Source: Candidatus Magasanikbacteria bacterium RIFCSPHIGHO2_01_FULL_33_34 (GTDB lineage: Bacteria; Patescibacteriota; Patescibacteriia; Magasanikbacterales; UBA922). From it: a stretch of 64,000 bases of DNA. Position 1 is the first letter of the stretch; each line of letters begins with the position of its first letter. Both the position numbers and the translations under genes were made by a program. The notes beneath the pieces are model-generated. The model did not search any database and was not told where the DNA came from. It saw nothing but the letters and a program-made list of their open reading frames with translations. The stretch covers positions 31,770 to 95,769 of the forward strand of contig MFPS01000009.1 of the NCBI GenBank assembly GCA_001782825.1, read 5' to 3'. Below, piece after piece: positions 3,873-62,460 of this stretch.

Positions 3873-5297
3873 TTATAATGCTTTTCTCTTCTTAAATAAT
3901 ATAAATGGAGTTTTAATAAAAATTACCAAATCAATCCACAAACTCCATTTTTCAATATAAAAAACATCCAATCTCATTTCCTCTGCAAAAGTTAAGTCAC
4001 TCCTGCCTGAGATTTGTGCCAGTCCAGTAATTCCTGGCTTTAAAGACAATACATAACGATATTCACTTTCATATTTATCAACTTCTCTAGGCTGATGCGG
4101 TCTAGGACCCACAATACTCATACTTCCACCCAATACATTAAAAAACTGAGGTAATTCATCTATGCTCCAACGCCTTATAAATCTTCCAAATTTTGTTACT
4201 CTAGGATCATCTGTAATTTTATAAATTGGGCCATCTTTGATACTTTTTTCTTTTATTAAATCTTTTTCTCTCTCTTCAGCATGGACACCTTCTTCACCAA
4301 ATTGTTTTCCCGTACAATCTTTTTTATACATTGATCGAAATTTTAAAGTAAAAAACTTTTTACTCTTCAAACCAACTCTTTCATTTTTATAAATTATTGG
4401 TAATCCTGTTTCAAAAAAAATAAATACAGAAGTAAAAATCATTATTGGGCTCACAATTACAAGCACAAAAATACTCATAACAATATCAAAAATTCGTTTC
4501 AATATCCTTGCCCAACCTTCAAGAGGTGTCGAGCGCAACTCAACAATCGGTATTCCGGCTAATGGGCTTACACGCATATTTGATGAAAAAGTATCAAATA
4601 AATCTGCTGAATATTTAAAGACAATCTGATGTTCATTACAATATTTAATTGCTTGTAATGTTTCTGTCTCATGAGCACGAGGATTTGTAAAAATTATTTC
4701 ATCAACTTTTAGATTATGAAGTGTACTAATTGTAGAATTATCAAAATGCACAAACTGCCCCACTATCAAATAACCCATTTCTTTGTGATCTTTCAAAAAA
4801 TTAATTATTTCATCCGCCGATGTCCCATGATGTCCGATAACAACAATTTTTCTAGACCCTATACCCGCCTTATACAATCTCCTCTTAAAAAGACGCATAG
4901 CAATCCTACCCAACACCATATAAACTACCGCAAATACCCAACTAACTACCACCAAAAATCTAGAATCAAAAACTTGTTGTCTAAACATTACATACACAGC
5001 AACCAAAGCAAGACCCGATGAACAAGCAAAAATCACTTTTTGTAATTCTGGTAAAAGTTTTCTATTGGGATCAGTGGAATAAAGTCCGGCAAAAGCAAAT
5101 ATTATTATCCAGACAAGTGCAATCGGCAACACTAACGAGATATATTCATTTGCCGATATATCAAATATTACCGGTTTCCAATCTACTGCCCAATCACTAA
5201 AACGCAAATAATAGGCAGAAATAGCTGCAAACAACAACAATAATAAATCCACTGGAACTTGTATGGCAGTAATAAATAATTCAGATCTTTTCATCAT
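3873..5297 (-). CDS. Polyprenyl-phosphate sugar phosphotransferase (bacterial sugar transferase, WbaP/EpsL-like priming enzyme)
   Basis: Several N-terminal TM helices. C-terminal catalytic domain with KFRSM...GPRP...SLKPGITGLAQISGRSD, the hallmark of PF02397. Confidence 0.85.
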   Translation of the reverse strand: MMKRSELFITAIQVPVDLLLLLFAAISAYYLRFSDWAVDWKPVIFDISANEYISLVLPIALVWIIIFAFAGLYSTDPNRKLLPELQKVIFACSSGLALVAVYVMFRQQVFDSRFLVVVSWVFAVVYMVLGRIAMRLFKRRLYKAGIGSRKIVVIGHHGTSADEIINFLKDHKEMGYLIVGQFVHFDNSTISTLHNLKVDEIIFTNPRAHETETLQAIKYCNEHQIVFKYSADLFDTFSSNMRVSPLAGIPIVELRSTPLEGWARILKRIFDIVMSIFVLVIVSPIMIFTSVFIFFETGLPIIYKNERVGLKSKKFFTLKFRSMYKKDCTGKQFGEEGVHAEEREKDLIKEKSIKDGPIYKITDDPRVTKFGRFIRRWSIDELPQFFNVLGGSMSIVGPRPHQPREVDKYESEYRYVLSLKPGITGLAQISGRSDLTFAEEMRLDVFYIEKWSLWIDLVIFIKTPFILFKKRKAL

Positions 5298-5373
5298 AAT
5301 ATTTTGCTTATTATAGTTATATATTAGCCCAAAAAATACAATCAGTCAATTTTATTTTTTTATGAAAAACACT

Positions 5374-5401
5374 TGACAAAAACACAAAAATATGCTATAT
5401 T
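5374..5401 (+). promoter_or_regulatory. Sigma70-type promoter of rnpB (TTGACA, 16-nt spacer, TATATT)
   Basis: TTGACA at 5374-5379 and TATATT at 5396-5401, read directly. The same CACTTGACAAA -35 context recurs at 63301. Confidence 0.6.
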
Positions 5402-5404
5402 GAA

Positions 5405-5806
5405 GCCATCTTGTTCATTATAAATGATCGCGTCACACTACTTGTGTGATGAGGAAAGTCCGAACTTCCTCTATTAAACCAGAAAAAATGTAGCGGGTAA
5501 TACCCGTCGGTGTACTGGTGACAGTACATTAGGGACAGTGCCACAGAGACTATACTAGTCCTAATTTATTAGGATAAAACGTGAAAAGAGTATGGAAGTT
5601 TTTATTCTTAAGACAAAAGCTACTATACTTCCTCCGCTATCCAGCGGGGGACGGTAAACCCTACATGGGAGAAAGAGCAGCGTTCTAATTTATTAGTTCG
5701 AAAAGTTAGCTCGTTTGAACTAAATAGCAATATTTAGTCTAGAGAAATGATCATTGCTTGATTTATCAAGTTACAAAATTCGGCTTACTGTAATGAACAA
5801 GATATA
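5405..5806 (+). ncRNA. rnpB: RNase P RNA (bacterial type A)
   Basis: Conserved P4 strands GAGGAAAGTCCGAAC (5') and ACAAAATTCGGCTTA (3'). Internal GGGTAATACCCG, CCACAGAGAC and GGTAAACCC motifs. P1 helix: 5408-5420 ATCTTGTTCATTA pairs with 5791-5803 TAATGAACAAGAT. Confidence 0.9.
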
Positions 5807-5834
5807 AAAAATCCGACATTAGTCGGTTTTTTTA
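5806..5834 (+). terminator. Rho-independent terminator after rnpB
   Basis: Hairpin CCGAC-atta-GTCGG followed by a T7 run. Confidence 0.6.
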
Positions 5835-6087
5835 TATTTAATAAGTGCTGACATATTAACCTTTGCACGAACCCACTTCACACACGTGGAGCGCGTGGTG
5901 GCTCCTGACTAAATCGTAAACTCGGATTTCACACCTCGTCCGCCCAGTGAGTACACAAATCCCCGCCGTTTTAAGAAGGTATTATAAAACGGCTGGAATT
6001 ACTCCCTTGAGTTATAAAAAAGAAAAGGCACCCAGAGGGACAAAGTCCATGGGTACCCAGATGTGACCGAAGTCACGTAGTGGTTGT

Positions 6088-6942
6088 TTAGGCGGTGATG
6101 CCAAAACCTTCGAGTGTCACCTTCGCGACCCGCTTGCCAAGCTCCTCGTCCTTGAAGCGCTGGGCGTTGATGTACGGGCCAGAGCCGAAGAAGCCACTGT
6201 CGACCGAGAAGCCATGCACGGTACCGTTCATGATGGCCTCGAGCACTTCTTCCTCAGTCCAACTGTAGAGGTTGTTCTTCGGGTTGCGCACCTCTTCGGT
6301 CTGACCGACGAGATGGAAGAAGCTGGCTTCCTCCTTGAGATCGGTGAACACGAGCGGTTGGTTGTTGTAATACTTCCAGACGTTGCCGCGTTCGATGAGC
6401 TCGATCCACGACTCCTCGGCGCTGGTCGAACCGCCTTCCATGAACCGGACATCGTAAAACGGCCACGAAGAGCCGTCGTTACGACGCTGGTGCATGTGAT
6501 GGTAGTCGATACGGCCAATTGTCATCTCGTGCTCGCTACCGTCGTGCGGGAAGCGCACGCGGACCTTGTCCTGTTCCCAGACCTTGGTTTCCGGCAGATC
6601 GCCGAGGCGAACTTGCGGAGTGCGCAGTATGCCATCGGCTCCGCGGAGAGCGGCGTCGCGACGCTTCTCCTGGTCCTTGTCGACCATCTCGATTGACCAG
6701 TCGCCGGGAACGATGCGTCCGTCCGAGAGCCAGACTGACACCGCGCCCTTGCGATGATAGACGCCGGGCTGGTGCACGAGAACCCGAACGCGAGACTCGT
6801 AGATCACGGCATCATAGAAGCCACAAACAATACCCTTGGTGCCATCGGGGACATCATTGTAGATGTCCGTCCACGCACGGCGTTCGGGGTCAACCTTGAA
6901 GACAACTTCATCGCCAATCTGTAAAAGTTCAGTGAGTGTCAT
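6088..6942 (-). CDS. Hypothetical protein encoded by a strongly GC-rich (foreign-composition) gene; function unknown
   Basis: Uninterrupted ORF. Codon third positions are GC-rich, in sharp contrast to all neighbours. The likely start is MTLTELLQIGDEVVFKV at 6940-6942, because the upstream part of the tracked ORF is AT-rich. No recognizable family. Confidence 0.6.
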   Translation of the reverse strand: MTLTELLQIGDEVVFKVDPERRAWTDIYNDVPDGTKGIVCGFYDAVIYESRVRVLVHQPGVYHRKGAVSVWLSDGRIVPGDWSIEMVDKDQEKRRDAALRGADGILRTPQVRLGDLPETKVWEQDKVRVRFPHDGSEHEMTIGRIDYHHMHQRRNDGSSWPFYDVRFMEGGSTSAEESWIELIERGNVWKYYNNQPLVFTDLKEEASFFHLVGQTEEVRNPKNNLYSWTEEEVLEAIMNGTVHGFSVDSGFFGSGPYINAQRFKDEELGKRVAKVTLEGFGITA

Positions 6943-7199
6943 TTGTAATACCTTCTGTTTGGGTTGAGAATGTTCAAATTTTAAGACACAATAGTTCACC
7001 TGAACTAATTATACTAGCAGATAAATAACTCTATGTCAAGAAGTTGTATAGTTAACATCTAATAATAACAAAAAGTCTATATTTTAAGGCTTTTTCTTAG
7101 TTTAAGTTTTTGATTAAAAAATTTTCTTTTCCAAAAACTGAATACAAATTAGTCACAAAGCAAAGTGAAGCTAATATTTCAATTTTTAAATTTCCTTTC

Positions 7200-7287
7200 T
7201 GGTGCTCAGGAGAAGACTCGAACTTCCACAGGCATTACGCCCACAGGCCCCTCAAGCCTGCGTGTCTACCAATTTCACCACCTGAGC
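7200..7287 (-). tRNA. tRNA-Leu (anticodon GAG), class II with long variable arm, CCA encoded
   Basis: The reverse complement reads GCTCAGGTGGTGAAATTGGTAGACACGCAGGCTTGAGGGGCCTGTGGGCGTAATGCCTGTGGAAGTTCGAGTCTTCTCCTGAGCACCA. The 7-bp acceptor stem pairs. Anticodon stem CAGGC/GCCTG with loop TTGAGGG. T-arm GTTCGAGTC. Confidence 0.85.
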
Positions 7288-7333
7288 ATATTTCTCTTCT
7301 ATTCTATAATGAATATAATTTTACCTAACAGCC

Positions 7334-7431
7334 AACATACATAATTATTCTTTTTACGGATTTGTCGCCACAACAGGCGACACCTCGGAGCCCGCAGGCG
7401 AGAATGAGTAAAAAGAATAATTATGTATGTT
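7334..7431. repeat. Structured repeat element copy 1: about 50-nt core (ACGGATTTG-hairpin-ACCTCGGAGCC...GCGAGAAT) nested in a perfect 24-bp inverted repeat
   Basis: 7334-7357 AACATACATAATTATTCTTTTTAC is the exact reverse complement of 7408-7431. The core contains hairpin GTCGCC-acaacag-GGCGAC. A second core copy lies at 45648. Confidence 0.7.
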
Positions 7432-7480
7432 TGGAACGAATTTGAACGAGAATGAATAAAATAAATTATATTTTTATGTA

Positions 7481-8248
7481 TCAAAACCGCCTATCTTTCC
7501 CAACAATCATCTCAATTCTATTTTTTGCCAACTTTATTACAATCTTTGTTTCCTTGGTTATAGTGCCATCAGCTTCCACTTGGAAAGGTTTACTTCCTGT
7601 AATAACCATTTCTTCAAATGGAAACAAACTCGGATCTTCATACTTATCACTAAACATTCCCTTGCCAGACATTGGACGTAAAAAAGCTTCCAATTTACCA
7701 TCTTGCGGATGGACAATAAAATCCTCTTTACCTTTTCTATTCCAGACAAATGGCTGTAAATTACAAACTACCAACTCCATTTTTTTGTGCTTTCCAAATA
7801 CTTTAAATTTTTCATCATACTCTACAGTTATATCACTCGCTGGAATATAAAGCTGAGAAATAAAATATCTATTGCGATTACTAATCCACCCAATATCTAA
7901 ATTAATTTTTCTTCTTTGAGAAAGCACATCACAAGCGTCCTCACCCTCTGGAATTCCCAAAACTTCTGCAATAGTATTTTTAGGTCCTACTGGCAAAAAA
8001 CCAAAAAGCACCCTACAGGCTGCTCCTCGAGACAAAACCCTGCCAAAAGTTTCATCATTTCCAACTATTACAATTACAGTAGCCCCTTTCTTAATTTCCT
8101 CTTCAATTATGGCTTCCGTATTTGTAAAATTTTGAAGTCTAATTATTTTACCTGCAATTTCAAAATCTGTCAACCTAGTCTCAATAGCTTTTACGGTTGA
8201 ATCAAATTTTTTACTTCTAAGGTAATTGTCATATAAATAAACATACAT
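7481..8248 (-). CDS. Diacylglycerol-kinase catalytic-domain (YegS/BmrU-like lipid kinase) family protein, degenerate GGDGT motif
   Basis: ATVIVIVGNDETFGRVL aligns to the DAGK_cat (I/V)VxGGDGT region, but the motif reads GNDET. Overall length and layout fit the YegS-like family. Confidence 0.5.
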   Translation of the reverse strand: MYVYLYDNYLRSKKFDSTVKAIETRLTDFEIAGKIIRLQNFTNTEAIIEEEIKKGATVIVIVGNDETFGRVLSRGAACRVLFGFLPVGPKNTIAEVLGIPEGEDACDVLSQRRKINLDIGWISNRNRYFISQLYIPASDITVEYDEKFKVFGKHKKMELVVCNLQPFVWNRKGKEDFIVHPQDGKLEAFLRPMSGKGMFSDKYEDPSLFPFEEMVITGSKPFQVEADGTITKETKIVIKLAKNRIEMIVGKDRRF

Positions 8249-8278
8249 AAATCAGTCATATACCAGTTACAATCCAAA

Positions 8279-8743
8279 TTATTTATCTTTTTTATCATCA
8301 TCTTTAACAATTCCTCTGATTAATCCAGATTTTTTATCACTTTTTGGGTCATCTATTTCCAATCCTTTCATTGTAACTTTTCCCCTGATTAATGCACCAG
8401 CTTCAATTACCAAGACACCACACTCAATATCCCCTAAAACTTGCGCAGTTGAAGTAAGCTCAAGTCTATCATCAACTTTTACATTACCTTTAACAACTCC
8501 AGAAACTACAGCATTACCAGCTTTTACACTTGCTAAAACTTTAGAACCTTTCTCAGATGTAAATAATTTACTAGTTTTTACATTTCCAGACACAATACCT
8601 TTTACCAAAATATTACCTTCTGAAGAAAAATCACCTTCTACGTGTACTGATGGGCCAACCACAGTCTCTACATCATCATGTTGTTTTGTATGCTGTGCAT
8701 TAATTTGAGACTCTGATTCGCTATAATTTGGTTTTTGAAACAT
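8279..8743 (-). CDS. Bactofilin (DUF583, CcmA-like cytoskeletal polymer)
   Basis: Repeated beta-helical GN(I/V)xVxGxVxGNV segments (GNILVKGIVSGNVKTS, GNAVVSGVVKGNVKVD, LVIEAGALIRGKV). Start chosen at MFQKPNY; the tracked ORF extends to 8797. Confidence 0.75.
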   Translation of the reverse strand: MFQKPNYSESESQINAQHTKQHDDVETVVGPSVHVEGDFSSEGNILVKGIVSGNVKTSKLFTSEKGSKVLASVKAGNAVVSGVVKGNVKVDDRLELTSTAQVLGDIECGVLVIEAGALIRGKVTMKGLEIDDPKSDKKSGLIRGIVKDDDKKDK

Positions 8744-8846
8744 ATATAATAGATTAAATAATATAAATATATTACAACAATTACAACTATTTTGCAACTA
8801 TACAAAATAATTAATTATTTATTATTTTGTTATATTGAGAATCAAA

Positions 8847-10478
8847 TTACAAACATTGATCCTTCTGTTTTAATGGGATTTTAAAGCCAAATTCTCCACC
8901 CTTACCAAGACCATCACTTTTTGCCCACACTTGTCCATTATGTTTTTCAACAAACTTCTTAGTCACATAAATTCCAAGTCCAGTACCGCCAACATTGGTA
9001 TTTTTAACATTTTTACCACGATAAAACTTTTGAAAAAAGTTTACTTCATCTGATTTATCAAAACCAATACCATTATCTTTAACTTTCACTTTTATATTAC
9101 TTCCAACAACTTCAGCTGATACATTGATTAAACCTCTTTCACTATACTTTATTGCATTATCAATAAAATTAAAAACTACATGACGAATTTTTTCATCATC
9201 CATACATACATCTAACTTTGTTTTGTCTGGCTTCCACACAATCTTTAGACCTTTGTCTTTTGCGCGTTGAGTCATTTCTTGGACTACACTTGTAATCAAT
9301 TCATTCATATCATGAATTTCAAAACTAAATTTAGTCCTATCTTGTTCAATTCTAGAAATATCCAAAAACTCATCAATCAATTTAACCAATCTTTCATTTG
9401 TTTCATCCATATCACCCAATATACTCTTTGTCTTCACAGTAATCTTCCCATATGCCCCATCTTGTATAAGCTCAATATATCCCTTGATAATAGATATAGG
9501 TGTACGAAGTTGATGAGAAGCAATAGAGAGAAATTCTGTCTTTTGACGATCTAATTCCTGTAGACGCAAATTGGCAGTCTCAAGTGATTTTGCAAGATGT
9601 AACAATTTTTCATTTTGTTGCACTTCTTTTCTAACACTTTGTATTAACAAAATACCAACACTTAAAATCAAAAGAAACAAAGAGCCTTTATAAAAAATAG
9701 TGACCAAATCATTAGAAGTTATCACTTCAAAAAGTACAGCTACAGATAAACCAATCACCAAAAATTCAGTAGAAACCACTTTTATATTCATCAACTTATG
9801 TCTTACAATCGCATAATATGTAAAAAATAAAAATGGTAAACTAAATGCCGCGCCAAATGTAACAAAATTAGAATTACCAAAAAAAGTAGGCAAAATTAAA
9901 CTAAAAATTAATATTAAAAAAATTGTTAAAAAAAATCCTATTAAAACAAAACTCAATGATCTGCGTTGTAATTTTGGTGATCTTAATATTTTCAGTATAA
10001 AAACAATTACACCTGACAAATTTAAACCAACCGCAGTCATTACAAACAAAAATATAAATGGTCCATTTATAACCCTAGATACCCTAACACCATTAAATTC
10101 CATTACTTCTTTAAAAATTAATGGTGTTAAAGTTAATATCGCAATAGTTATTACAAATGGTAACAAAAAAAATTTATAAAATTTAGGAATCATTTTTTTC
10201 TTTTCAGGGAAAACATAAAGTAAGTGAAAAGTAAAAAATGAATGCCAAACTGCCAAAAAAATTGTAGTTCTCAATAACCAAATCACTACATTCGGATCCA
10301 AAAATTTATAAGTTAAATAATTGAATCCATTATAAAGAATAGTAAAAATTGATAATAATAAAAATGCTTTGTTTGTAGTACTAGATTTATTATTAAAATA
10401 AATCAAAAAACCCAAAATAGCTATACCCGTTATAGCTAACCCTACGATAAATAAATCCGTATTTACAACCAAATTCAT
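8847..10478 (-). CDS. Sensor histidine kinase with an N-terminal domain of about 8-9 TM helices (HisKA + HATPase_c); no response regulator adjacent
   Basis: H-box SIASHQLRTPISIIKGYIELI. N-box and G-boxes NFIDNAIKYS, DNGIGF, GGTGLGIYVTKKFVEKHNGQVWAKS. Long hydrophobic N-terminal half. Confidence 0.85.
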   Translation of the reverse strand: MNLVVNTDLFIVGLAITGIAILGFLIYFNNKSSTTNKAFLLLSIFTILYNGFNYLTYKFLDPNVVIWLLRTTIFLAVWHSFFTFHLLYVFPEKKKMIPKFYKFFLLPFVITIAILTLTPLIFKEVMEFNGVRVSRVINGPFIFLFVMTAVGLNLSGVIVFILKILRSPKLQRRSLSFVLIGFFLTIFLILIFSLILPTFFGNSNFVTFGAAFSLPFLFFTYYAIVRHKLMNIKVVSTEFLVIGLSVAVLFEVITSNDLVTIFYKGSLFLLILSVGILLIQSVRKEVQQNEKLLHLAKSLETANLRLQELDRQKTEFLSIASHQLRTPISIIKGYIELIQDGAYGKITVKTKSILGDMDETNERLVKLIDEFLDISRIEQDRTKFSFEIHDMNELITSVVQEMTQRAKDKGLKIVWKPDKTKLDVCMDDEKIRHVVFNFIDNAIKYSERGLINVSAEVVGSNIKVKVKDNGIGFDKSDEVNFFQKFYRGKNVKNTNVGGTGLGIYVTKKFVEKHNGQVWAKSDGLGKGGEFGFKIPLKQKDQCL

Positions 10479-60415: not shown

Positions 60416-60661
60416 ACCAAAAGTGCTGAGCACACTCTAAAATGCTCTTTTTTTTATAAATAACTTTTTTGGTTAAAAATTAATTCTTTCGTATATAATA
60501 CTCAATACCTTGACAAAAAAATATAAATAATATAAAATGTGATCTTCTTTGCTTAATATACTAAATAAAGAAAAGAGGAAACACCAAAATAGCGCACGCG
60601 GACCAGATTGTGTAGTGGTAGTACCAACGTAGTACAACGTTGTAAATACCCGGAGACACAA

Positions 60662-61054
60662 ATGCTGAATCCATTCAAAGCTACCATTTCTATCCTGTGT
60701 GTAATTGCATTTACCACTAACGCAATCGCACAAGACAATGGTCCAATCCTTATCAGTAAAGAGGACTGTGCAAAACTACAATTCATAAAGTATGATGCCC
60801 AACAAGACCTAAATGAAACCAAAAACCGATGTGATGCCGGTGTATACTCATCAACAACCTGCCATTTTTTGGCAAAACTGTATAGTGAAATTATCGAAGA
60901 AGCAACAAGATTGTACGAGGTATTCTGCCATTCGTACTCAGCTAAAGATACCATGCAATGGCAAACCATTAGGGATCTCGACACAATCAAGGAATACGAT
61001 GCATTGATGTTCGCCCTCAACGACATGTTGAGCCCGAACACCTTCCAGCCGTAA
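60662..61054 (+). CDS. Secreted small Cys-containing protein, paralog A (signal peptide; conserved C-terminus ...DLDTIKEYDALMFALNDMLSPNTFQP)
   Basis: Start MLNPFKATISILCVIAFTTNAIA (signal-peptide-like). The C-terminal 45 aa are about 85-100% identical to the 61978-62460 product. The antisense ORF 60553..61080 is rejected. Confidence 0.6.
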   Translation: MLNPFKATISILCVIAFTTNAIAQDNGPILISKEDCAKLQFIKYDAQQDLNETKNRCDAGVYSSTTCHFLAKLYSEIIEEATRLYEVFCHSYSAKDTMQWQTIRDLDTIKEYDALMFALNDMLSPNTFQP

Positions 61055-61887: not shown

Positions 61888-61977
61888 CAAGAGAGCGCAC
61901 GAGTGTTAAATTGTGTAGTGGCAGTACCCCACGCAGTATTGAGTAGTAAAACCAGTAATGACGAGAGGCACGCCACA

Positions 61978-62460
61978 ATGGGAAAGAGCATGAAAACATC
62001 TGGACTGATCTGCATGATCATCATGTTCATGTCAGTCAGTTCAGCCATGGCTGCGGACGACACCTCGTTGTCCGAAACCAACAAACTGGCGCTCCAACAG
62101 TTGTTGGGTGACAACACAAGCGCCCAAGACAACGGTGGATACTCTGAGCTGGAGAAGACCTGCAAGATGCTCTGGGATGCCAAAGGGCATGCCCAAATCC
62201 AGCTTGACGACTGGACATACAACTGTAGCTTCGGGGATATCTCTCAATTCACCTGCAACTACTGGATCTCGTATTACACCGACATGCGCGACAAGGCGCA
62301 AGCGTTGTACAAGTTCTGGAAGTGTGCAGACCACTTCGGACCGTCTAGGACCTCCACGTGGTCTGAAGGGTCAATCGGAGATCTCGACACTATCAAGGAA
62401 TACGACGAGCTGGTGTTCGCCCTCGACGACATGTTGAGCCCGAACACCTTCCAGCCGTAA
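61978..62460 (+). CDS. Secreted small Cys-containing protein, paralog B (GC-rich codon usage)
   Basis: Start MGKSMKTSGLICMIIMFMSVSSAMA (signal peptide). C-terminus DLDTIKEYDELVFALDDMLSPNTFQP. 4+ Cys. Confidence 0.6.
   Translation: MGKSMKTSGLICMIIMFMSVSSAMAADDTSLSETNKLALQQLLGDNTSAQDNGGYSELEKTCKMLWDAKGHAQIQLDDWTYNCSFGDISQFTCNYWISYYTDMRDKAQALYKFWKCADHFGPSRTSTWSEGSIGDLDTIKEYDELVFALDDMLSPNTFQP

What the first reader, a model, noticed from the sequence alone, without database searches (positions are those of the whole stretch)
5845..6960. GC-rich foreign-composition island of about 1.1 kb carrying a single unknown 284-aa gene, wedged between rnpB and tRNA-Leu
Seen in sequence:
- Base composition switches abruptly from an AT-rich background (about 30% GC by eye) to clearly more than 50% GC between about 5845 and 6960, and back again.
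- The island contains one uninterrupted minus-strand ORF (6088-6942) with GC-rich third positions and no recognizable family.
- It is flanked by two stable-RNA genes: RNase P RNA 40 nt to the left and tRNA-Leu about 240 nt to the right. Stable-RNA genes are classical integration hot spots.

Inference:
- This looks like horizontal acquisition from a high-GC donor (for an episymbiotic small-genome bacterium, the host is an obvious candidate) or a phage/integrative remnant.
- The spurious long antisense ORFs across it are a side effect of the high GC.
Basis: partly seen in the sequence, partly recalled or inferred. Interest (0 to 1): 0.6.

Follow-up and report, generated by a model that had tools for sequence, protein, structure and literature searches.

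The report
Roving GC-rich single-gene cassette
The GC-rich island is a real, horizontally acquired, self-contained one-gene cassette (own promoter and terminators) that circulates among ultra-small Patescibacteria while keeping about 58-60% GC, and it encodes a conserved protein of unknown function whose wider family is native to giant phages.

Summary
Window 5845-6960 reaches 54-66% GC against a 34% background. It holds one intact minus-strand ORF (6088-6942, 284 aa) between rnpB and tRNA-Leu(GAG).

It is an insertion. Three sister Magasanikbacteria lineages have the same gene order, but their tRNA-Leu and rnpB 3' ends lie 41-79 nt apart, against 1,396 nt here. Three independent assemblies reproduce both junctions at 100% identity, so it is not a chimera.

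The unit is larger than the GC island. It runs from a sigma-70 promoter (-35 at 7034-7039) through a 5'UTR, the ORF, an intrinsic terminator and a second hairpin to about 5854. The same cassette (77-90% nucleotide identity) sits at unrelated loci in other Patescibacteria. One copy lies inside the spc ribosomal operon, and some lie in small tRNA-Ser-associated islets with a Shedu defence gene.

Its GC stays at 0.55-0.63 whatever the host GC (0.32-0.59). Distant and jumbo-phage homologs track their genomes (r = 0.94). dN/dS is about 0.14.

The protein has two Tudor/SH3-like barrels plus a C-terminal domain with no structural analog found. It matches no curated family, but about 677 clusters of relatives exist. 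Its function is unknown. The symbiont's host is not supported as donor.

The parts
5412..5803 (+). rnpB (RNase P RNA, class A). Native left neighbour, convergent with the cassette.
   Evidence: Rfam RF00010, 156 bits. Also present in the cassette-free sisters L037, L039 and L041.
5813..5836 (.). Native bidirectional terminator hairpin (CCGACattaGTCGG plus T-run) of rnpB. It is retained, and it marks the left limit of the insertion.
   Evidence: Terminator scan. The same sequence lies between tRNA-Leu and rnpB in the sisters.
5854..5886 (-). Distal tail segment of the cassette (CGTGTGTGAAGTGGGTTCGTGCAAAGGTTAATA), shared with copy L028.
   Evidence: Local alignment z = 9.1, 0 of 300 shuffles.
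5887..5957 (-). Middle of the tail. It is moderately GC-rich and non-coding, and it is only partly shared with other copies (5943-5957 with L028). A by-eye resemblance to a tRNA-Leu 3' half proved to be chance.
   Evidence: tRNA-half test: 256 of 1000 shuffles reach the score.
5958..6000 (-). Second hairpin after the terminator (stem GCCGUUUUA/UAAAACGGC plus outer pairs). Its loop at 5974-5988 is 14/15 complementary to the gene's own Shine-Dalgarno/start region.
   Evidence: Inverted repeats I4 and I5. The fold has z = -4.5, and the same architecture with compensatory changes occurs in L028 (z = -5.9) and L043. Loop-to-SD duplex is -13.7 kcal/mol, 0 of 1000 shuffled loops.
6014..6058 (-). Intrinsic terminator: GGGUACCCAUGGACUUUGUCCCUCUGGGUGCC followed by UUUUCUUUUUU.
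   Evidence: Conserved at the DNA level in 8 or more copies. Predicted hairpin.
6063..6076 (-). Small conserved hairpin GUGACuucgGUCAC between the stop codon and the terminator.
6088..6942 (-). 284-aa ORF encoding two Tudor/SH3-like beta-barrels (about residues 1-100 and 105-184) plus a C-terminal alpha/beta domain (185-284).
   Evidence: 128 homologs, 677 clusters. AF2 pLDDT 91.8 and 90.4. Fold hits. dN/dS median 0.14.
6943..7010 (-). 5'UTR with SD AGAAGG (6951-6956). The UTR hairpin conserved in other copies (UUUUGAGCuauugugGCUCAAAA) is mutated here (GAAC...GUCUUA).
   Evidence: Alignments. Folds.
7011..7039 (-). Sigma-70-type promoter TTGACA-17-TAGTAT with an extended TG. DNA homology with other copies begins exactly at the -35 box (to about 7041).
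   Evidence: Promoter scan, 10 of 12 matches. blastn boundary at 7041. Alignment.
7042..7199 (-). AT-rich 158-nt leader. It is absent from the sister genomes and not shared with any other copy, so it is part of the insertion, but its origin is unknown.
   Evidence: absent in sisters. (no significant match to other copies).
7200..7287 (-). tRNA-Leu(GAG). Native right neighbour, upstream of and co-oriented with the cassette. Its former terminator now lies beyond the cassette.
   Evidence: ARAGORN, Rfam, sisters.

Best explanation
The island is a horizontally acquired, autonomous one-gene expression cassette. About 1.19 kb of it (window 5854-7041) is shared with other genomes, and the whole insertion relative to sister genomes is about 1.35 kb. 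It landed in the 41-79-nt spacer between the 3' end of tRNA-Leu(GAG) and the rnpB terminator, after this Magasanikbacterium split from its known relatives. SHOWN: it carries its own sigma-70 promoter, 5'UTR/SD, ORF, intrinsic terminator and a second hairpin. The same promoter-to-terminator unit occurs at unrelated chromosomal sites in other Patescibacteria candidate phyla. The coding sequence is under purifying selection. This cassette lineage keeps 55-63% GC irrespective of host GC, whereas distant family members, including those on jumbo-phage contigs, have the composition of their genomes. The window copy has no recombinase gene, terminal inverted repeats or target duplication. Some sister copies sit in small, decaying tRNA-Ser-associated islets next to a Shedu nuclease and an Xre-type regulator. 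INFERRED: the cassette behaves like a phage 'moron' that has escaped into chromosomes. It is moved passively, by DNA uptake or transduction followed by illegitimate recombination, or as cargo of small tRNA-targeting islets that later erode. It is transcribed from its own promoter, possibly boosted by read-through from the co-oriented tRNA-Leu, and it is insulated by tandem terminators. It is kept because its product is useful or addictive. The protein most likely acts by binding a macromolecule through its two Tudor/SH3-like barrels, with the novel C-terminal domain as effector. My best guess, at about 0.3, is a role in phage-host conflict such as exclusion, defence or counter-defence. Its biochemical function is not established.
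For: Insertion: sisters L037, L039 and L041 share the order bactofilin-DAGK-tRNA-Leu-rnpB-sugar transferase-GT4-GT4, but with 41-79 nt between the tRNA-Leu and rnpB 3' ends, against 1,396 nt in the window. Real, not chimeric: JGI, ENA and Logan assemblies are 100% identical to window 5000-8300 across both junctions, and the protein is on 23 or more contigs. Autonomous unit: blastn homology to other copies starts at the -35 box (7041) and ends past the terminator (6012 to 5943). Promoter TTGACA-17-TAGTAT. The 3' region has a conserved fold, z = -4.5 and -5.9. Unrelated contexts: GH16|SAM synthetase, nucleoside deoxyribosyltransferase, PGM, Obg, AddA-like, rplN|rplX and others, and no conserved neighbour. 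HGT clock: cassette dS is 0.60-0.75 between candidate phyla, against dS of 1.2 or more for the flanking genes compared with the closest sisters. Selection: dN/dS 0.08-0.25, median 0.14. Frozen composition: in the close clade, gene GC has sd 0.018, slope 0.08 and r = 0.35 (not significant) against host GC of 0.32-0.59. In distant and phage members r = 0.94 and slope 0.98. Phage link: 11 IMG/VR contigs of 60-608 kb carry the gene at native GC, one of them next to a tail sheath gene. Islet link: L043 has tRNA-Ser, an HTH control protein, SduA (E = 4e-86), the gene, then an inverted copy of the HTH start. L028 keeps a 37-codon SduA stub and L031 keeps the HTH gene. Moron definition (own promoter and terminator, deviant GC): PMC3594210. 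HGT mostly among Patescibacteria, via competence or transduction: PMC12455944. Fold: two Tudor/SH3-like barrels.
Against: No vector has been caught. The exact 5'UTR and terminator motifs give 0 hits in IMG/VR, and there are no hits in GenBank phages, so phage carriage of this particular cassette lineage is not shown. With dS of about 0.6-1 between copies, passive residence in AT-rich hosts should have lowered GC3 more than observed. The constancy therefore needs either an unseen GC-rich reservoir or selection/biased gene conversion, and neither is demonstrated. The defence role is only guilt by association in 2-3 of about 17 contexts. There is no PADLOC hit, and the fold matches are generic with weak E-values (4e-3 or worse). 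The origin of the AT-rich 158-nt leader is unexplained.
Confidence: 0.72

Rival explanations
1. Selfish single-gene mobile element. On this reading the 284-aa protein is itself a new kind of recombinase, transposase or homing-type nuclease that moves its own promoter-to-terminator cassette, preferentially next to tRNA or other highly transcribed genes, without terminal inverted repeats or target duplications.
For: The gene is the only constant component, while partners (HTH, Shedu, a 225-aa ORF) vary. It occupies different loci in every lineage. The tree is star-like and composition is independent of the host, as for IS elements. The gene lies directly downstream of and co-oriented with a tRNA in the window, L001, L011 and L013/L014, and 4 of 17 close contexts have a tRNA within 600 nt (rough p of about 0.015). 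Acidic residues D11, D125 and E205 are invariant. Hairpins lie near both ends of the unit. Decayed or IS-disrupted copies exist.
Against: There is no match to any transposase, integrase or nuclease family in Pfam, NCBIfam or PHROGs. The fold is two Tudor/SH3-like barrels, not an RNase-H, HUH or recombinase fold. The HxH in 'HHMH' is not conserved. There is a single copy per genome region. In L005/L046 the copy has been inherited vertically at one site while diverging in step with the ribosomal genes. The extents of shared flank vary between copies, unlike precise transposition.
Confidence: 0.15
2. Eroded remnant of an integrase-borne island or prophage that integrated site-specifically into the 3' end of tRNA-Leu. 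Everything except this one moron-like gene would since have been deleted.
For: The position is immediately 3' of a tRNA gene. In L001 the cassette starts at the base after the tRNA-Ser 3' end. Sister copies show progressive erosion of a larger islet: a full SduA in L043, a 37-codon stub in L028 and nothing in the window. An unexplained 158-nt leader and a roughly 160-nt tail flank the core. The family is phage-associated.
Against: There is no integrase or remnant anywhere in the insert (ORFs; tblastn with the islet proteins finds nothing in the window). There is no att-type direct repeat: the tRNA-half resemblance is chance and no flanking direct repeat was found. No recurrent integrase occurs next to any of about 17 copies. 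Many copies are nowhere near a tRNA.
Confidence: 0.25
3. Direct transfer from the high-GC host organism of the episymbiont.
For: GC of about 58% and GC3 of 0.74 are foreign to a 34% GC genome.
Against: All relatives at 54% identity or more are in Patescibacteria MAGs. The only hits outside Patescibacteria and phages are 24-31% identical (Alphaproteobacteria, Magnetococcales, a Rhizobium plasmid). The non-coding promoter, UTR and terminator are shared specifically with other Patescibacteria copies.
Confidence: 0.04
4. Native gene, or an assembly or binning artefact. The island would be either an old resident whose GC is held up by selection, or a chimeric join.
For: GC3 stays high despite dS of about 0.6-1 between copies, which could suggest selection on composition.
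Against: Three sister lineages show empty sites. Both junctions are 100% identical in three independent assemblies, on contigs up to 247 kb and 1.17 Mb. Private substitutions in the window copy are 13 GC>AT against 2 AT>GC, which indicates decay and not maintenance.
Confidence: 0.02

Closest known systems
Phage morons (Hendrix/Juhala; reviewed in Cumby, Davidson & Maxwell 2012, PMC3594210)
   Same: It is a single ORF with its own sigma-70 promoter and factor-independent terminator. Its GC content clearly differs from that of its neighbours. It is inserted between two genes that are adjacent in relatives. It is spread by horizontal transfer, and the protein family is present in phage genomes.
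   Different: It sits in a bacterial chromosome between two stable-RNA genes, not in a prophage or phage genome. The same DNA cassette is found in several candidate phyla and even inside the spc ribosomal operon. No phage carrying this exact cassette has been found.
tRNA-associated genomic or defence islets (integrase-borne islands carrying systems such as Shedu)
   Same: It is adjacent to a tRNA 3' end, its composition is foreign and its distribution is patchy. In L043, L028 and L031 the gene travels with an Xre-type control protein and a Shedu (SduA) nuclease next to tRNA-Ser.
   Different: The window copy has no integrase, no att direct repeats and no other cargo. The gene itself matches no known defence family.
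IS200/IS605-type and other minimal insertion sequences
   Same: It is about 1.2 kb with one gene, has hairpins near both ends, and lacks terminal inverted repeats and target-site duplications. Its composition is independent of the host.
   Different: There is no HUH/Y1, DDE or serine/tyrosine recombinase signature or fold. It is single-copy, the shared ends are imprecise and variable, and it has been inherited vertically over a long period at one site (L005/L046).
Tandem Tudor / KOW / SH3-like barrel proteins (e.g. PHF1 and LBR Tudor domains, ribosomal eS4, phage KOW-domain proteins)
   Same: Both N-terminal domains superpose on Tudor-type barrels (target-normalised TM up to 0.79, rmsd 1.5-2 Å over about 65 residues).
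   Different: Sequence identity is only 10-20% and E-values are 4e-3 or worse. The C-terminal 100-residue alpha/beta domain, which holds most of the invariant residues, has no detected analog. No whole-protein match exists.

Membership tests
Phage moron | Independent transcription unit: own promoter and factor-independent terminator flanking a single ORF | tested here: met
   TTGACA-17-TAGTAT with TG. Hairpin plus U-run terminator conserved in 8 or more copies. This is a sequence prediction only, with no transcript data.
Phage moron | Nucleotide composition differs from the surrounding genes | tested here: met
   58.1% against 30-34% GC, z = 5.3.
Phage moron | Inserted between genes that are adjacent in related genomes | tested here: met
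   tRNA-Leu and rnpB are 41-79 nt apart in L037, L039 and L041.
Phage moron | Resides in a phage or prophage genome | tested here: not met
   The flanks are rnpB, tRNA-Leu, a DAGK-like kinase, bactofilin and a sugar transferase. The exact cassette is absent from IMG/VR and GenBank phages. Only distant homologs (30-48% identity) are on viral contigs.
Integrase-mediated tRNA-targeting genomic island | Integration at the 3' end of a tRNA gene | tested here: met
   The insert begins at the base after tRNA-Leu (7199/7200) relative to the sisters. L001 begins at the base after tRNA-Ser.
Integrase-mediated tRNA-targeting genomic island | Tyrosine or serine integrase gene within the island | tested here: not met
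   The insert holds a single ORF with no Pfam, NCBIfam or PHROG hit. No integrase lies next to any copy examined.
Integrase-mediated tRNA-targeting genomic island | Flanking direct repeats (attL/attR) duplicating the tRNA 3' end | tested here: not met
   The apparent tRNA-half in the tail is not significant (256 of 1000 shuffles). No flanking direct repeat was found.
Insertion sequence / transposon | Recognisable transposase (DDE, HUH, serine or tyrosine) | tested here: not met
   No family hit. The fold is Tudor/SH3-like barrels. A novel catalytic domain cannot be excluded.
Insertion sequence / transposon | Terminal inverted repeats and/or target-site duplication; multiple copies | tested here: not met
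   Only a 13-nt, 85% inverted pair (5906-5918 / 7143-7155) was found, with no duplication. There is no second copy in the 64 kb. The rest of the genome was not available.
Free-standing homing endonuclease gene | LAGLIDADG, GIY-YIG, HNH, His-Cys or PD-(D/E)XK nuclease domain | tested here: not met
   No Pfam or PHROG hit at E of 1 or less.
Free-standing homing endonuclease gene | Same insertion site in different genomes (homing into a conserved target) | tested here: not met
   About 17 different contexts. The only shared site (rplN|rplX in L005/L046) is explained by vertical descent.
Integron gene cassette | Promoterless ORF followed by an attC site, in or near an integron or CALIN array | tested here: not met
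   The cassette has its own promoter. It is solitary, with no array or IntI nearby. The 3' hairpin was inspected only by eye for R''/R' core sites, and no attC model was run.
Shedu (SduA) defence system | DUF4263/SduA nuclease gene in the locus | tested here: not met
   Absent from the window (tblastn). Present next to the L043/L044 copy (PADLOC E = 4e-86) and as a stub in L028.
Tudor / SH3-like barrel fold | Five-stranded barrel superposable on Tudor/KOW domains | tested here: met
   Domain 1: LBR Tudor TMt 0.68, plus phage KOW proteins. Domain 2: PHF1 Tudor TMt 0.78-0.79, rmsd 1.5-2.0 Å. This is fold level only, with weak E-values.
Tudor / SH3-like barrel fold | Aromatic cage or other defined ligand-binding site | not tested
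   Conserved aromatics (F121, W122, Y147, Y163) are noted. The model coordinates could not be inspected with these tools.

The most novel reading that the evidence does not exclude
The 284-aa protein founds a new class of self-mobilising enzyme. On this reading the cassette is a minimal, TIR-less, duplication-less mobile element that targets the 3' flanks of tRNA and other highly transcribed genes in Patescibacteria and jumbo phages. Its constant 58-60% GC would be actively maintained, by selection on the DNA/RNA or by GC-biased conversion during frequent recombination, and would not be a relic of a donor. The tail-hairpin loop that pairs with the gene's own Shine-Dalgarno sequence would then be a built-in translational brake on the mobility protein.
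Probability: 0.12. Interest if true: 0.85.

Novelty: new variant of a known kind. Interest (0 to 1): 0.55.

Why it matters
Patescibacteria have tiny genomes of about 1 Mb that are thought to tolerate little surplus DNA. Yet here a complete promoter-to-terminator cassette has crossed between candidate phyla. It has lodged between two stable-RNA genes, and in another lineage inside the universally conserved L14|L24 junction of the spc operon. Everywhere it is kept under purifying selection.

This gives three things. First, it is a clean, datable case of inter-phylum gene flow in the CPR, with empty-site controls. Second, it is a compositional puzzle: GC is frozen across hosts from 32% to 59% GC although dS is about 0.6-1. 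That puzzle can be used to test reservoir, selection and biased-conversion models. Third, it identifies a large family (about 677 clusters) of phage-linked proteins with an unmatched C-terminal domain, which is a worthwhile target for structural and functional work on phage-host conflict in uncultured bacteria.

If the function turns out to be ordinary, the finding is still a well-documented example of a moron-like gene outside a prophage.

Tried and rejected
1. att-type repeat. The tail looked by eye like a degenerate 3' half of tRNA-Leu. The local alignment score is reached by 256 of 1000 shuffles, so this is rejected.

2. Structured RNA in the tail. A permissive Rfam scan of 5700-7300 gave only noise besides rnpB and the tRNA.

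3. Curated families. Pfam, PHROGs, NCBIfam, PADLOC and a PDB sequence profile search all returned nothing for the protein.

5. Conserved neighbours. An all-against-all comparison of ORFs over all loci found none. Trigger factor recurs upstream in L009, L013 and L014, but it is housekeeping.

6. Domain fusions. The longer members carry no known domain. P0117 is a copy disrupted by an IS256-type transposase and P0111 is a chimera.

7. Phage carriage of the exact cassette. The 5'UTR and terminator motifs give 0 hits in IMG/VR, GenBank phages give no hit, and plasmids give one weak Rhizobium hit.

8. Terminal inverted or direct repeats in the window. None are convincing.

9. Host-specific amelioration. 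Private substitutions are biased GC>AT in every copy, including those in hosts of about 50% GC, so the test does not discriminate.

10. The 158-nt leader (7042-7199). It matches no other copy.

11. Anti-SD loop as a conserved feature. It is significant in the window and L043 but not in L028 or L045, so it is kept only as a lead.

It was redone with substrings of permitted proteins.
Full report
OBSERVATION. The composition switch is real and sharp. GC in 200-nt windows is 0.23-0.40 on both sides and 0.54-0.66 between about 6000 and 6900. The ORF 6088-6942 (-) is 58.1% GC, with 0.63/0.38/0.74 at codon positions 1/2/3, against 33.8% for the whole window. That is z = 5.3 relative to 400-nt windows elsewhere, and only one other, weaker segment in the 64 kb reaches 0.46. 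The ORF is intact. Homologs show that the ATG at 6942 is the start, not the upstream GTG at 6999. The antisense ORFs are mirror images of the gene and carry no independent signal.

IT IS AN INSERTION, NOT AN ARTEFACT. The neighbouring DAGK-family gene (7481-8248) is native, with hundreds of Magasanikbacteria orthologs. Contigs of three sister lineages (DAGK 80-88% identical; L037, L039, L041) show the same order: bactofilin, DAGK, tRNA-Leu, rnpB, sugar transferase, GT4, GT4. In them the tRNA-Leu and rnpB 3' ends are only 41-79 nt apart and share one bidirectional terminator. In the window they are 1,396 nt apart. The identical protein is on at least 23 contigs. Loci from JGI, ENA and Logan assemblies are 100% identical to window 5000-8300 across both junctions.

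ANATOMY OF THE UNIT. Nucleotide homology with other genomes does not stop at the ORF. Read on the minus strand, it begins exactly at a -35 box (CTCTTGACA, window ~7041). It then runs through a promoter (TTGACA-17-TAGTAT with TG), a conserved 5'UTR with SD, and the ORF. Next come a small hairpin (6063-6076), an intrinsic terminator (6014-6058) and a second long hairpin (5958-6000), and it ends at about 5854. The 3' region folds far better than shuffles in the window (z = -4.5) and in L028 (z = -5.9). The architecture is the same in both, and the second stem shows compensatory changes. A further 158 nt (7042-7199) is also absent from the sisters but matches no other copy. The window copy has no convincing terminal inverted repeats, no target duplication and no att-like repeat. 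An apparent tRNA-half in the tail is chance, reached by 256 of 1000 shuffles.

THE SAME CASSETTE ELSEWHERE. The protein has 128 relatives at 90% clustering, all unnamed. They lie in MAGs labelled Parcubacteria, Kaiserbacteria, Nomurabacteria, Paceibacterota and Saccharibacteria. NCBI ranks Magasanikiibacteriota and Kaiseribacteriota as separate candidate phyla. Copies at 77-90% nucleotide identity, including promoter, UTR and terminator, lie in unrelated contexts. These include GH16|SAM synthetase (L028), a nucleoside deoxyribosyltransferase (L027), directly after tRNA-Ser (L001), PGM (L003), MYG1|Obg (L034) and an AddA-like helicase (L007). Most strikingly, one copy lies between rplN (L14) and rplX (L24) inside the spc operon (L046/L047 and L005). 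An all-against-all ORF comparison finds no conserved neighbour. L005 and L046 are related genomes: their flanks are 75-78% identical and the gene 78%. That insertion has therefore been inherited vertically for a long time.

EVOLUTIONARY SIGNATURES. dN/dS among close copies is 0.08-0.25 (median 0.14), so the gene is functional everywhere. The NJ tree is star-like. dS between the window copy and copies in other candidate phyla is 0.60-0.75. The window's native flanking genes differ from the closest cassette-free sisters by dS of 1.2-3.0, which is saturating. The cassette lineages therefore coalesce more recently than this genome split from its own relatives, which means horizontal transfer.

Composition is the oddest feature. 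In 17 close copies, gene GC is 0.547-0.630 (sd 0.018) over host GC of 0.32-0.59 (r = 0.35, not significant; slope 0.08). In 16 distant and phage members, gene GC tracks the genome (r = 0.94, slope 0.98). Private substitutions are GC>AT biased in every copy (13:2 in the window). So the copies decay, yet the lineage as a whole stays GC-rich. Either divergence accumulates in an unseen reservoir of about 58-60% GC (L046's host, at 0.59 GC, is such a genome), or GC is maintained by selection or biased conversion. I could not decide between these.

LINKS TO PHAGES AND TO DEFENCE ISLETS. A profile search of 1.84 billion representatives finds 677 clusters (327 at E of 1e-30 or better), almost all of 260-310 aa. 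Eleven IMG/VR contigs of 60-608 kb carry homologs at 30-48% identity with native composition. One is next to a tail sheath gene, and others lie among helicases, CobT-like genes and amidotransferases. GenBank phages give no hit and plasmids give one weak hit. The exact UTR and terminator motifs are absent from IMG/VR.

Within the close clade, L043/L044 show a larger unit. It consists of tRNA-Ser(gct), an Xre-type control protein, a frameshifted Shedu nuclease (SduA, E = 4e-86 and 1e-44), the gene, its tail, and then an inverted, 45/45-identical copy of the HTH gene start at the contig end. L028 retains a 37-codon SduA stub. L031, the window's nearest relative, retains the HTH gene plus a different 225-aa ORF. 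L045 has the HTH-start segment abutting a tRNA-Ser 3' end. tRNA genes lie within 600 nt in 4 of 17 close contexts (rough binomial p of about 0.015). Distant homologs sit just downstream of tRNA-Ser (L011) and tRNA-Pro (L013/L014). Part of the lineage thus travels in small, eroding, tRNA-associated islets. The window holds only the core gene with its own signals.

THE PROTEIN. AlphaFold models are confident: pLDDT 91.8 for the full length and 90.4 for residues 103-284. Foldseek finds only local matches. Domain 1 resembles Tudor/KOW/SH3-like barrels, including many uncharacterised phage KOW proteins. Domain 2 superposes on PHF1-type Tudor domains (TMt 0.78-0.79, rmsd 1.5-2.0 Å over about 65 columns, but E of 4e-3 or worse). 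The C-terminal alpha/beta domain (185-284) holds most of the invariant residues: R185-G-N-V-W, E204-E205, N220-P221 and W228. It has no detected analog. No curated family, solved-structure sequence or defence model matches, and the longer members carry no informative fusion. The function is therefore unknown. Tandem Tudor/SH3-like barrels point to macromolecule binding, and phage residency plus the Shedu/HTH company suggest phage-host conflict, but that is inference at about 0.3.

AN UNEXPLAINED DETAIL. The loop of the second hairpin (5974-5988) is 14/15 complementary to the gene's own SD/start region (6942-6956). The duplex is -13.7 kcal/mol (0 of 1000 shuffled loops) in the window and -11.9 (p of about 0.002) in L043. 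The pairs look compensatory: SD AGAAGG with loop CCUUCU in the window, and AGGAGG with CUCCU in L043. In L028 and L045 the pairing is not significant. It may be an anti-SD element or coincidence.

COMPARISON AND VERDICT. The unit works like a phage moron: it has its own promoter and terminator, deviant GC, and is inserted between genes adjacent in relatives (PMC3594210). It fails the membership criterion of residing in a phage or prophage. It resembles a tRNA-targeting island but lacks an integrase and att repeats. It resembles a minimal IS but lacks any transposase signature, defined ends and multiple copies. It is not a homing endonuclease gene or an integron cassette. Gene flow mainly among Patescibacteria, by competence or transduction, is in line with PMC12455944. 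I rate it a new variant of a known kind. Interest is moderate (0.55): it is a well-controlled inter-phylum transfer with a real compositional puzzle and an uncharacterised, widespread protein family, but no demonstrated new mechanism.

Noticed in passing
L046:2524-4327 and L047; L005:5767-7100: The cassette is inserted between rplN (L14) and rplX (L24) inside the spc ribosomal-protein operon, co-oriented and carrying its own terminator. L046 has a second insertion between rplE and rpsN (a gag-asp-protease-like ORF plus small ORFs). How the downstream ribosomal genes are expressed is unclear.
   Followed up: partly
window 5974-5988 vs 6942-6956: The loop of the post-terminator hairpin is 14/15 complementary to the gene's own Shine-Dalgarno/start region. 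The pairing is significant in the window and L043 but not in L028 or L045. It could be an anti-SD element.
   Followed up: partly
window 61903-62460 (+) and 60608-61054 (+): This is the second, weaker GC-enriched spot (up to 0.54). It is a 185-aa ORF that looks secreted. Its C-terminus (…DLDTIKEYDELVFALDDMLSPNTFQP) is paralogous to that of the more AT-rich ORF about 1 kb upstream.
   Followed up: no
L037:6077-6571 and L041:5931-6425 (rnpB): rnpB in two sister genomes is about 495 nt, against 392 nt in the window and 409 nt in L039. The alignment shows two extra modules of about 50-60 nt of the form CCACTAATCT…AGATTAGTGG inserted in the RNase P RNA gene.
   Followed up: no
L043:1679-2877 (and L044): The Shedu nuclease gene (SduA) is split by a frameshift into ORFs of 295 and 104 aa. 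L028:5763-5873 keeps only its last 37 codons. This looks like progressive erosion of a defence islet.
   Followed up: partly
L011:5962-6846 and 8172-9014: Two diverged paralogs of the family lie 1.3 kb apart in an AT-rich (30% GC) contig, both at native composition and downstream of tRNA-Ser(gct).
   Followed up: no
L002:7683-7804 and L012:3944-4075: LOOT RNA (RF03000) genes lie within about 1-2 kb of the family gene in two loci.
   Followed up: no
L009:3788-4921, L013:2530-4005, L014:2161-3513: Trigger factor is the divergent upstream neighbour of the family gene in one Nomurabacteria MAG and two Proteobacteria MAGs. This is probably coincidence or a shared hot spot.
   Followed up: partly
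P0117 (contig of 14 kb, JGI): A family member has its N-terminal 125 residues fused to the C-terminal half of an IS256/Mutator transposase. It is a copy disrupted by an IS insertion.
   Followed up: partly
window 6943-7010: The 5'UTR hairpin conserved in other copies (UUUUGAGC…GCUCAAAA) is destroyed in the window copy by G>A and C>T changes, and a different small hairpin lies just upstream. This looks like AT-ward decay of the non-coding parts.
   Followed up: partly
window 7042-7287: After the insertion, tRNA-Leu has lost its immediate terminator. Its transcripts would read into the co-oriented cassette. The same co-orientation downstream of a tRNA or a ribosomal operon is seen in L001, L011, L013/L014 and L046.
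   Followed up: no
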